Source: Oxalobacteraceae bacterium
Lineage (GTDB): Bacteria; Pseudomonadota; Gammaproteobacteria; Burkholderiales; Burkholderiaceae_D
Assembly: GCA_027484285.1 (NCBI GenBank)
Contig: JAIXTG010000114.1
Location: forward strand, 34,848-98,847
Length of the DNA: 64,000 nucleotides
Reading direction: 5' to 3'
A program made the position numbers and the translations under genes. The notes beneath the pieces were generated by a model that ran no database searches, was not told the DNA's origin, and saw only the letters and a list, made by a program, of their open reading frames with translations. This document shows positions 10,832 to 12,212 of this stretch, one piece after another. Every line of letters starts with the position of its first letter. Positions within the stretch are counted from its first letter, which is position 1.

Positions 10832-10848
10832 CTATCCCCAGGGGATAG
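10832..10848. repeat. 17-bp palindrome CTATCCCCAGGGGATAG, copy 1
   Basis: 8-1-8 perfect inverted repeat, identical at 12196 and 14155. Confidence 0.95.
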
Positions 10849-10881
10849 TTGGGACAGCCCCTCTTCCGCAAGTCCGTCCCG

Positions 10882-12096
10882 TCAATCTGCTTCCACCTCT
10901 CCCGAGGATTCACCCCAATAGGCGTAGTTGAACAGTGCATCCAATTCCGTGAAGTCGGCCAGGCCCAGCGCCTGTCGCACCTCCTCGGCATGCTGGCAAT
11001 ACCTTGCGTAGTCGTCGGGACCGACGTTTTGCTTGTTTGGATGTAGGGGATATGCCCTGATCCCGGCCAATGCCAGCCCCGACACCGCGTTTTGGTTCAT
11101 CACCGCGAACCGCTTGTTGTCAAGTGCGTGCAGCACCTCGGTCAGTAGGTTGATGCCTGCTCGCGGGATGTGCTCGAAGTGCGCATGAAGAACTGCGAAG
11201 GCGTCTCCAGGTGGGAGAGTGCCTTGGCCCACGATGTCTCTTACCGCTGCGACGAACTGACCTGGATGCTCCGCGATTCGGTTCTTGCCGCGATGCAAGC
11301 CACCCGAATGCAGCAGGCCGATCAACGTTTCAAATCGGGCCAGGAACCCTTGACTCGTATTCCCACGCGCGACGGCCCATTCCTCCAACATCCGCCTTGC
11401 CTGGCGAAGGTTGCCCTTTCGTAGGGCTTTCTGTTCCGTGAAGCCATGTTCTGAATCGTCGCTTTTCATCAACTCCAGAATGCCGGCCAACGTCGTGAAG
11501 TTCGGGCCAATCGCGCTGCTTGCCTTCTGCGCACGCTTCTTGGCCACCTTTCGGAAGATGTCGTGGATGACGTACTCCCGTTCATAGGCGTCAATGCGGT
11601 CCCTGGTCGCCGGGACGATGATTTCGTCATCGATCAGAGCGTCGAAATGCTGAGTGACCGAGGCCATCAGCGTGTCGCTCGTGCCCTCGACCAAGGCTGA
11701 TGCCTCATAGTTGGCGTAGAGGCCTCCTTGTGTGAAATTGGCCGATCCGACGATCACCGAGCATCCCTTGCTGTGCTGAAAGGCGTAGATCTTCGGATGG
11801 AATGTCTCGCTGGAATCACTGAGGTACAGCTTGAGCGCGTGTTCTTTGGTCAGCTCCAGCAGCTTTCGGAGCACGACGGGCTCGGTCAGATAGAAGTCGA
11901 GGCCGATTGCAAATCGGGCTTCCAGTCCGCGCTCAAGCGCCTTGCGCAGTGACTTCAGCAGCCCGTTCAGGGCCGATGCCTTCGCAAAGGCCACCAAGCA
12001 TTCCAGGCGCTCCGCCTGCTTCAGCAGTTTCACGAGCTTGTCGCCGTGCCCGCGTTCCTCGTTCACCAGCAGTTGAACGGCGGTCTCATCCTTCAT
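10882..12096 (-). CDS. Phospholipase D-family nuclease (single HxK motif) with a C-terminal HhH-like domain
   Basis: FHPKIYAF...VIVGSANFT matches BfiI/NgoFVII-type PLD nucleases. GGGGG RBS before ATG 12096. Antisense to the backbone, with lower GC (about 58% in a sampled 60-mer). Confidence 0.8.
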   Translation of the reverse strand: MKDETAVQLLVNEERGHGDKLVKLLKQAERLECLVAFAKASALNGLLKSLRKALERGLEARFAIGLDFYLTEPVVLRKLLELTKEHALKLYLSDSSETFHPKIYAFQHSKGCSVIVGSANFTQGGLYANYEASALVEGTSDTLMASVTQHFDALIDDEIIVPATRDRIDAYEREYVIHDIFRKVAKKRAQKASSAIGPNFTTLAGILELMKSDDSEHGFTEQKALRKGNLRQARRMLEEWAVARGNTSQGFLARFETLIGLLHSGGLHRGKNRIAEHPGQFVAAVRDIVGQGTLPPGDAFAVLHAHFEHIPRAGINLLTEVLHALDNKRFAVMNQNAVSGLALAGIRAYPLHPNKQNVGPDDYARYCQHAEEVRQALGLADFTELDALFNYAYWGESSGEVEAD

Positions 12097-12195
12097 CGTT
12101 TGACCCCCTTCTTGCGTGCGGCAGCCCCAAACCAGGGGCAACCAATGGCCATTGTCCAGGTCTGCCTGCAGGCTCGGTCCTCTCCTGCCAGGCAT

Positions 12196-12212
12196 CTATC
12201 CCCAGGGGATAG
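12196..12212. repeat. 17-bp palindrome CTATCCCCAGGGGATAG, copy 2
   Basis: Identical to copies 1 and 3. Confidence 0.95.

What the first reader, a model, noticed from the sequence alone, without database searches (positions are those of the whole stretch)
10832..12212. Solitary PLD-nuclease + HhH-like reader gene forming a cassette exactly between two identical palindromes
Seen: a 404-aa antisense, lower-GC gene. It fills the interval between two identical CTATCCCCAGGGGATAG sites that separate two backbone genes. The N-terminus has one HxK...GSAN PLD motif. The C-terminus (HIPRAGINLLTEVLHALDNKRFAVMNQNAV...LDALFNY) resembles an HhH-GPD glycosylase fold with Asn where the catalytic Asp would be. 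There is no adjacent methyltransferase. Established: single-HKD PLD domains dimerise as nucleases (Nuc, BfiI), and nuclease + modified-base-reader fusions act as Type IV restriction enzymes. Inference: this is a possibly undescribed modification-dependent or anti-phage nuclease that uses a dead glycosylase fold as sensor, carried in a swappable palindrome-bounded slot.
Basis: partly seen in the sequence, partly recalled or inferred. Interest (0 to 1): 0.75.

Follow-up and report, generated by a model that had tools for sequence, protein, structure and literature searches.

The report
END-type anti-phage nuclease in ICE slot
The gene has the two-domain build of the recently described END nucleases, single-gene defences that cut phage DNA carrying heavily modified bases. 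It sits as optional cargo in a mobile element, between two copies of a known regulatory palindrome (bisS), so it is a new member of a known kind.

Summary
**Observation:** confirmed. A 404-aa gene on the minus strand (10882-12096, GC 58% against 66-71% in its neighbours) lies between two identical CTATCCCCAGGGGATAG sites.

**The palindrome:** it is the published bisS box. bisS is the parS-like site where BisD, a ParB-like CTP clamp, loads onto ICEclc-family elements. The whole genome holds only these three copies.

**The protein:** an N-terminal single-HKD PLD nuclease (H100, K102, GSAN; closest solved structure SauUSI). The C-terminal helical domain matches Pfam PF21790 "OGG" weakly, and its best fold match is an archaeal 8-oxoguanine glycosylase. 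The expected catalytic Lys and Asp positions hold near-invariant Asn (N316, N334).

**Family:** this is the architecture of END nucleases (bioRxiv 2025). Those are solitary, methylase-free, Type IV-like enzymes shown to restrict phages with hypermodified DNA. I could not compare the sequence directly with a tested END enzyme.

**The slot:** in 78 related ICE loci it is empty (25) or holds an OST-HTH gene (33), toxin-antitoxin pairs, other nuclease or helicase genes, or END (3). On a backbone tree END needs at least 4 gains or losses. The "swappable slot" is therefore real, but how cargo is exchanged is unknown.

The parts
10882..12096 (-). END-type nuclease gene, 404 aa plus stop (P0001)
   Evidence: Translation. 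More than 200 full-length homologues of about 400 aa. AF2 model mean pLDDT 92.4. GC 0.584 against 0.66-0.71 in flanking genes.
11635..12030 (-). N-terminal single-HKD PLD nuclease domain (residues 23-154). H100 = 11797-11799, K102 = 11791-11793, GSAN 117-120 = 11737-11748.
   Evidence: Pfam PLDc_2 E 1.2e-11 and RE_NgoFVII E 1.1e-6. PDB sequence and fold best hit is SauUSI 7clg, followed by BfiI, NgoAVII and Nuc. H, K and GSAN are each kept in 98 of 100 family representatives. Coordinates checked.
10909..11511 (-). C-terminal all-helical HhH / OGG-EndoIII-like sensor domain (residues 196-396). HhH glycine G314 = 11155-11157, N316 = 11149-11151, N334 = 11095-11097, E320 = 11137-11139, D386 = 10939-10941.
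   Evidence: PF21790 E 3.3e-4 here; 58 of 72 homologues hit it. C-terminal domain model pLDDT 94.5. Foldseek top hit is 3fhg SsOgg, probability 0.97, TM 0.48; mOGG1 and MutY rank lower. N316 and N334 are each kept in 98 of 100 representatives.
10832..10867 (+). bisS copy a (17-nt core 10832-10848) plus a conserved 19-nt extension. Left border of the cargo slot, 9 nt after the stop of the STY4528-family gene.
   Evidence: Core matches the published bisS GAGCTATCCCCnGGGGATAGCTC.
12196..12231 (+). bisS copy b (core 12196-12212) plus extension. Right border of the slot. Core starts 139 nt upstream of the inrR/AcaB-like start; the counterpart of bisS-1 of ICEclc.
   Evidence: In nearly all of the 80 related loci the core starts 133-149 nt (most often 138) upstream of the acaB-like start.
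14155..14171 (+). bisS copy c between ssb and topB, 1959 bp from copy b. The counterpart of bisS-2 of ICEclc, which lies about 2 kb from bisS-1.
7183..9018 (+). BisD-like ParB-family protein, the presumed reader of bisS
   Evidence: NCBIfam TIGR03764 ICE_PFGI_1_parB, E 5.7e-118.
8918..9592 (+). DUF2857 protein. I recall the BisC partner of BisD as DUF2857, but did not check this.
   Evidence: Pfam DUF2857, E 3.3e-63.
9596..10822 (+). STY4528-family ICE backbone gene, left neighbour of the slot
   Evidence: NCBIfam NF040582, E 4.9e-121.
12335..13108 (+). PFL_4669 / AcaB-family (InrR-like) ICE backbone gene, right neighbour of the slot
   Evidence: Pfam AcaB E 4.5e-82 and TIGR03761 E 8.8e-89.

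Best explanation
The gene most likely encodes an END-family, modification-dependent restriction endonuclease.

**How it would work.**
- Two copies of the single-HKD PLD domain pair to form one phosphodiesterase active site. This is inferred from Nuc and BfiI.
- The C-terminal helix-hairpin-helix domain derives from EndoIII/OGG-type glycosylases. It carries Asn at the positions of the catalytic Lys and Asp. It would act as a non-catalytic sensor of bulky, hypermodified bases in incoming phage DNA and license cleavage.
- Unmodified host and ICE DNA would be spared, so no methyltransferase is needed. Function is inferred from tested END homologues in PMC12191111, not shown for this protein.

**Where it sits.**
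- The gene is optional cargo in an ICEclc-family integrative conjugative element.
- It lies in a hotspot between the STY4528-family gene and the inrR-like gene, on the strand opposite to the backbone.
- The flanking palindromes are bisS boxes, where the element's ParB-like CTP clamp BisD loads to switch on transfer genes. They belong to the backbone, not to the cassette.
For: **N-terminal domain.** PLDc_2 and NgoFVII-type PLD domain. Best sequence and fold match is SauUSI 7clg. The END paper reports the same 7CLG_A hit for its founder enzyme. H100, K102, GSAN and E131 are each kept in 98 of 100 representatives down to 25% identity.

**C-terminal domain.** PF21790 hits in 58 of 72 homologues. 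A confident model has SsOgg as its only high-probability Foldseek match, with mOGG1 and MutY also listed. N316 and N334 lie 2 and 20 residues after the hairpin Gly, which is my recollection of EndoIII's K120 and D138 relative to G118. Both are kept in 98 of 100 representatives.

**Architecture.** 297 cluster representatives carry this C-terminal domain, nearly all at residues 200-400 of proteins of about 400 aa.

**No partner gene.** No methyltransferase is adjacent, and there is almost none in the genome. No conserved partner appears across contexts. The same ICE slot holds END in L001, L036, L065, L083, L098, L099 and L102. Other homologues sit among Mrr, PIN and AbiJ genes (L100), beside a DUF87 ATPase cluster (L002), or in an integrase-bounded island (L101).

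**Published function.** END nucleases restrict phages with hypermodified T, C or G. They spare phages with unmodified DNA, and the C-terminal domain sets specificity.

**bisS.** The core is identical to the published box. A BisD-family gene lies upstream. Positions match ICEclc.
Against: - No sequence of an experimentally tested END enzyme was available, so homology to END-PaCF1, PAK or Pa4 is inferred from shared domain signatures, not measured.
- PF21790 is below Pfam's cut-off for this protein (20.9 against 27 bits).
- Foldseek E-value for SsOgg is only 0.17, with TM 0.48.
- hhalign of the C-terminal profile against EndoIII gave 0.3% probability. It placed the Asp opposite the variable D326 rather than N334, so the Asn-for-Asp assignment rests on motif spacing and helix capping in the model.
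- E320 and D386 are 98-99% conserved acidic residues, so residual chemistry in the C-terminal domain is not excluded.
Confidence: 0.78

Rival explanations
1. The C-terminal domain is still an enzyme. It would be a non-canonical glycosylase using E320 or D386, so the protein excises modified bases and then nicks or cuts. It would be a combined glycosylase-nuclease rather than a sensor-nuclease.
For: E320 (98 of 100) and D386 (99 of 100) are as conserved as the PLD catalytic residues. The fold is glycosylase-like. Glycosylase-based defence exists: Brig1 is cited in PMC12191111.
Against: The canonical Lys and Asp positions hold Asn throughout the family. The END authors judged the domain inactive. 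Conserved acidic residues can equally serve base recognition.
Confidence: 0.08
2. The gene serves the ICE rather than the host. It would degrade competing mobile DNA, or act as a stabilising or addiction-type module, like the toxin-antitoxin pairs that occupy the same slot in other ICEs.
For: The slot holds ParE, RelB/PaaA2 and Xre-RES modules in about 13 of 78 loci. END sits in this slot in at least five backbone lineages, and still at 55% identity in L102.
Against: It is absent from the ten closest backbone relatives of this ICE, so it is not needed for maintenance or transfer. Homologues also occur outside ICEs, next to other defence genes. Defence and ICE benefit are not mutually exclusive.
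Confidence: 0.08
3. It is a BfiI/NgoAVII-like Type IIS restriction enzyme that cuts unmodified DNA at a specific sequence, protected by an unlinked methyltransferase.
For: Pfam RE_NgoFVII hit. BfiI and NgoAVII appear among sequence and fold matches. Some databases name homologues 'NgoFVII family restriction endonuclease'.
Against: The similarity is confined to the PLD domain. The C-terminal domain is helical and OGG-like, not the B3-type barrel of BfiI. No methyltransferase lies in the window. The genome has no PF01555 or PF00145 match and only one weak PF02384 match on another contig.
Confidence: 0.04

Closest known systems
END nucleases (END-PaCF1, END-PAK, END-Pa4, END-Ec1; Yee et al., bioRxiv 2025, PMC12191111)
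   Same: - Single gene under 500 aa, with an N-terminal HxK PLD nuclease whose best structural relative is SauUSI.
- C-terminal domain matched by PF21790 / EndoIII-OGG, lacking the catalytic residues.
- No methyltransferase and no conserved partner gene.
- Found on mobile or defence islands of Proteobacteria, including Pseudomonas.
   Different: - Identity to the tested enzymes is unknown, because their sequences are not held.
- The tested ones lie in chromosomal defence islands. This one and a large clade of relatives sit in a fixed slot of ICEclc-family elements between bisS boxes.
- Phage targets of this orthologue are untested.
SauUSI (PDB 7clg), Type IV ATP-dependent restriction enzyme
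   Same: Closest solved PLD nuclease domain (phmmer E 2.4e-8; profile E 6.9e-19; Foldseek E 1e-11). Its restriction is modification-dependent.
   Different: SauUSI is 953 aa, with a helicase motor and a different target-recognition domain for 5mC/5hmC. Here there is no motor, and the sensor is an HhH glycosylase-like fold.
BfiI / NgoAVII Type IIS PLD restriction enzymes
   Same: A single HKD domain that dimerises, giving metal-independent nuclease chemistry.
   Different: They use a B3-like barrel for sequence recognition, cut unmodified DNA and have cognate methyltransferases.
bisS / BisD of ICEclc (PMC12409273); more broadly parS-ParB and OB-KorB of RK2
   Same: The 17-nt core is identical. 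A BisD-family gene lies upstream. One site lies upstream of inrR and one by ssb, about 2 kb apart.
   Different: ICEclc is reported with two bisS boxes. This element has a third, and cargo lies between copies a and b. The GAG...CTC outer arms of the published 11-bp repeat are only partly kept here.
pdif modules of Acinetobacter plasmids, and integron cassettes (analogy only)
   Same: Discrete, interchangeable cargo, including toxin-antitoxin pairs, bracketed by copies of one short site.
   Different: No recombinase is known for bisS. The 1-nt centre is unlike Xer or integron sites. No circular intermediates or junctions were examined.

Membership tests
END nuclease | N-terminal PLD-superfamily nuclease with an intact HxK motif | tested here: met
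   PLDc_2 E 1.2e-11. H100 and K102 are each kept in 98 of 100 representatives. SauUSI is the top structure.
END nuclease | C-terminal EndoIII/OGG-like HhH domain (PF21790 by HHpred in the paper) | tested here: met
   PF21790 E 3.3e-4 for this protein, below the gathering score; 58 of 72 homologues hit it, best E 1.4e-6. Foldseek top hit is SsOgg 3fhg, probability 0.97, TM 0.48. Support is moderate, not strong.
END nuclease | Glycosylase catalytic residues absent (inactivated EndoIII) | tested here: inconclusive
   By motif spacing, G314+2 is N316 and G314+20 is N334, the latter capping helix 335-342 in the model. The profile alignment to EndoIII was not significant and placed the Asp at D326. 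No Lys or Asp variant is seen at either column.
END nuclease | Solitary gene with no cognate methyltransferase | tested here: met
   Neighbours are ICE backbone genes. There is no methyltransferase in the window and almost none in the genome. Contexts vary between homologues.
END nuclease | Detectable sequence homology to an experimentally validated END enzyme | not testable with these tools
   The paper gives accessions only (MBX6756561.1, ELJ2661932.1, HCP8353069.1). No supplement is held. Those accessions did not appear in the clusters I looked up.
END nuclease | Restricts phages with hypermodified DNA but not phages with unmodified DNA | not testable with these tools
   Needs plaque assays.
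bisS box (BisD loading site) | Sequence CTATCCCCnGGGGATAG, the core of GAGCTATCCCCnGGGGATAGCTC | tested here: met
   Three exact cores. Outer arms are partly kept.
bisS box (BisD loading site) | Cognate BisD-type ParB protein encoded by the same element | tested here: met
   TIGR03764, E 5.7e-118, at 7183-9018.
bisS box (BisD loading site) | BisD binding and CTP-dependent loading at the site | not testable with these tools
   Shown for ICEclc only.
Type IIS PLD restriction enzyme (BfiI / NgoAVII) | B3-like barrel DNA-recognition domain and a cognate methyltransferase | tested here: not met
   The C-terminal domain is all-helical. No methyltransferase was found.

The most novel reading that the evidence does not exclude
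The 36-nt bisS unit (the palindrome plus GGnACA-n(4-5)-GCCTTCC) may be more than a BisD loading site. It may also be the boundary at which defence and toxin-antitoxin modules are exchanged between ICEclc-family elements. That would be a cassette system sited on the element's own centromere-like switch. A related possibility is that cargo placed between two loading sites comes under BisD-clamp control, so END expression would change when the ICE becomes transfer-competent.
Probability: 0.15. Interest if true: 0.65.

Novelty: new member of a known kind. Interest (0 to 1): 0.38.

Why it matters
- **END carriage by ICEs.** The locus shows that END-type nucleases, known so far from chromosomal defence islands of clinical isolates, are also carried by a very widespread family of conjugative elements. 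The identical protein is seen on 191 contigs. Resistance to phages with hypermodified DNA can therefore spread by conjugation.
- **A cargo hotspot.** The locus also defines a small hotspot inside the regulatory core of ICEclc-type elements. It sits between the loading sites of the BisD clamp and holds defence and toxin-antitoxin genes. I did not find this described in the ICEclc papers I read.
- **What is not new.** The kind of enzyme and the palindrome are both already published.

Tried and rejected
- **Profile against PDB sequences.** The family profile found only PLD proteins. Nothing matched the C-terminal domain.
- **Foldseek with the full-length model.** It returned only PLD hits. A separate C-terminal model was needed.
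- **hhalign against EndoIII.** The C-terminal profile against an alignment of ten EndoIII genes from related genomes gave 0.3% probability. It cannot settle the catalytic-residue alignment.
- **PF21790 across 301 genomes of the class.** Only two weak matches appeared, so no stand-alone active relatives could be collected for comparison.
- **PADLOC and NCBIfam.** They recognise only the PLD part, as DrmC or mREase_IV.
- **Plasmid collection.** Three full-length homologues turned up (two Burkholderia contaminans, one Novosphingobium resinovorum), all named only 'phospholipase D family protein'.
- **Empty-slot spacers.** I asked whether the short spacers between bisS copies in empty slots are remnants of sampled cargo. 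There were no blastn-short hits, so deletion scars are neither shown nor excluded.
- **bisS as a terminator.** There is no T-run and the hairpin loop would be too short, so I rejected this (sequence).
- **Promoter scan.** No sigma-70 promoter was found for END.
- **Supplements.** None are held for the END paper.

Full report
**What is there**

The interval holds one convincing gene on the minus strand. The longest ORF runs 10882-12195 (437 aa). The start at 12096 gives 404 aa. That start matches the N-termini of 71 homologues and has AAGAAGGGGG six bases upstream. Gene GC is 0.584, against 0.66-0.71 for the six neighbouring backbone genes.

The 17-mer CTATCCCCAGGGGATAG occurs exactly at 10832 and 12196, bracketing the gene. 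Chance expectation is 0.04 per window. The whole 5.7-Mb assembly holds only these three copies and a single copy of the gene.

**The palindrome is a known element**

The window carries an ICEclc/PFGI-1-family integrative conjugative element. The gene order is:
- ParA
- a ParB-family protein (TIGR03764)
- DUF2857
- an STY4528-family protein
- the slot
- a PFL_4669/AcaB-family (InrR-like) protein
- DUF3158
- SSB
- topoisomerase III

Further on lie TraG-, TraC- and TraI_2-type transfer genes.

For ICEclc, the sequence GAGCTATCCCCnGGGGATAGCTC was shown in 2025 to be bisS. It is the parS-like site where the ParB-like CTP clamp BisD loads before sliding out to co-activate transfer promoters with BisC. 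ICEclc has two such sites, about 2 kb apart, at inrR and at ssb (PMC12409273). Copies b and c here are 1959 bp apart in the same positions. Copy a is an extra one.

That agrees with this reading.

**The protein**

*N-terminal domain.* Residues 23-154 form a single-HKD PLD domain.
- PLDc_2 scores E 1.2e-11 and RE_NgoFVII scores E 1.1e-6.
- The nearest solved relative, by sequence and by fold, is the nuclease domain of the Type IV enzyme SauUSI (7clg). BfiI, NgoAVII and Nuc follow.

*C-terminal domain.* Residues from about 196 to 396 are all-helical.
- They give a sub-threshold hit to Pfam PF21790, 'putative 8-oxoguanine glycosylase OGG-like' (E 3.3e-4).
- 58 of 72 full-length homologues hit the same family.
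- A confident model of this domain alone (pLDDT 94.5) has one high-probability Foldseek match in the PDB. It is the Sulfolobus 8-oxoguanine glycosylase 3fhg (probability 0.97, TM 0.48 over the whole length). Mouse OGG1 and MutY also appear lower in the list.

*Catalytic positions.*
- The motif I-P-R-A-G314-I-N316-L-L-T-E320 reads as a helix-hairpin-helix.
- As I recall E. coli EndoIII, the catalytic Lys lies 2 residues and the Asp 20 residues after the hairpin Gly (G118, K120, D138).
- Here those positions are N316 and N334, and N334 caps the next helix in the model.
- Across 100 cluster representatives down to 25% identity, N316 and N334 are each kept in 98. That is as strict as H100 and K102.
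- A profile-profile alignment to EndoIII was not significant and cannot confirm the register. 'Asn for Asp' therefore remains an inference.
- E320 and D386 are equally conserved and unexplained.

**What it is**

This architecture was published in March 2025 as END nucleases (PMC12191111).
- They are single-gene defences with an HxK PLD nuclease and an inactivated EndoIII/OGG-like C-terminal domain.
- HHpred hits for the founder enzyme are 7CLG_A, PF21790 and 4UOB.
- They have no methyltransferase and no conserved neighbour.
- Tested homologues from P. aeruginosa, E. coli, Salmonella and Vibrio restricted phages with hypermodified thymine, cytosine or guanine. They did not restrict phages with unmodified DNA.
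- Swapping the C-terminal domain changed specificity.

The protein here shows the same signature on every feature I could test. I could not obtain a sequence of a tested END enzyme, so direct homology is unmeasured.

The C-terminal domain occurs almost only in this architecture. Of the 297 cluster representatives that match it, nearly all are about 400 aa with the match at residues 200-400. No methyltransferase lies in the window, and there is hardly one in the genome.

I therefore file it as a new member of the END kind, with probability about 0.78.

**The slot**

I fetched 80 related ICE loci through the InrR-like protein. Of these, 78 have both flanking genes.

| Content of the slot | Loci |
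|---|---|
| OST-HTH/LOTUS protein of 287 aa (one locus also holds an IS, one also holds ParE) | 33 |
| Empty | 25 |
| Xre-RES toxin-antitoxin pair | 6 |
| RelB/PaaA2 | 4 |
| END | 3 |
| ParE alone | 2 |
| Histidine kinase | 2 |
| MkoC-like SF1 helicase | 1 |
| DUF5677 protein | 1 |
| Double-HKD PLD protein | 1 |

Further END homologues at 79%, 72% and 55% identity sit in the same slot in L001, L098/L099 and L102. Others, at 69%, 55% and 51% identity, lie outside ICEs and without bisS. They sit among Mrr, PIN and AbiJ genes, beside a DUF87 ATPase cluster, or in an integrase-bounded island.

Cargo is nearly always flanked by two bisS copies. Empty slots carry two copies in 18 loci, one in 4, three in 2 and none in 1.

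The repeated unit is longer than the palindrome. It is a 36-nt direct repeat, CTATCCCCWGGGGATAG-nn-GGnACA-n(4-5)-GCCTTCC. Cargo-specific sequence begins right after the left unit and ends right before the right one.

On a tree of three concatenated backbone proteins (STY4528-family, InrR-like, DUF3158), the seven END-bearing elements need five changes, of which at least four are forced by well-supported branches. The window's ICE sits in a supported clade with ten relatives whose slots are empty.

The slot is therefore truly variable, and END has been gained or lost repeatedly.

How exchange happens is open. It could be homologous recombination through the conserved flanks, insertion into a tolerated spacer between tandem bisS units, or site-specific events at the unit. 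Spacers of empty sites are not recognisable remnants of sampled cargo.

**Verdict**

Both ingredients are already described, as END nucleases and as bisS. The novelty is limited to a new family member in a new, mobile context and to the bisS-bounded cargo hotspot.

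Noticed in passing
window 14155-14171: A third exact bisS core lies between ssb and topB, 1959 bp from copy b. It matches the published bisS-2 position of ICEclc.
   Followed up: yes
window 10849-10867 and 12213-12231; also L006-L085: A conserved 19-nt extension, nn-GGnACA-n(4-5)-GCCTTCC, follows bisS copies a and b on the + strand in most related ICEs. 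The repeated unit is therefore a directional 36-mer. Its role is unknown; it could be part of the PinR promoter or a BisC site.
   Followed up: partly
L025:3949-4812 (+), and 32 other loci: The commonest occupant of the slot (33 of 78 loci) is a 287-aa protein with a C-terminal OST-HTH/LOTUS domain and no PADLOC hit. Its function is unknown.
   Followed up: partly
L008:4697-4881 and L041:4696-4881: Some empty slots hold three bisS units at a spacing of about 80-89 bp, forming a small tandem array of BisD loading sites.
   Followed up: no
L079:2249-3943 (-): Here the slot holds a 564-aa protein with two PLD (HKD) domains. The slot as a whole is low in GC (0.55). This is a different PLD enzyme in the same place as END.
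   Followed up: no
L020:1381-4770 (+): Here the slot holds an 1129-aa SF1 helicase that matches the PADLOC MkoC (Mokosh) model at E 1e-67. In L020, L021 and L022 the left bisS lies inside the 3' end of the STY4528-family ORF.
   Followed up: no
window 12097-12195: The longest ORF would start at an ATG (12193-12195) that abuts bisS copy b, and some pipelines call this 437-aa form (P0123). Homologue N-termini and the ribosome-binding site favour the 404-aa start.
   Followed up: yes
window 14047-14091: An exact 18-nt repeat (CGCCGAAGGAAACCAAGG), 27 nt apart, lies in the 3' end of ssb and encodes a repeated lysine-rich tail.
   Followed up: no
window about 4900-57000: The ICE appears compact. ParA through TopB is followed by a ResIII/SNF2-type helicase (27982-30411), a TraG-like coupling protein (33691-35850), TraC-like (41292-44585) and a TraI_2 relaxase (54076-56163). 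Aldehyde dehydrogenase, LysR and aconitase genes lie outside. No tRNA gene is in the window, and the ends were not mapped.
   Followed up: partly
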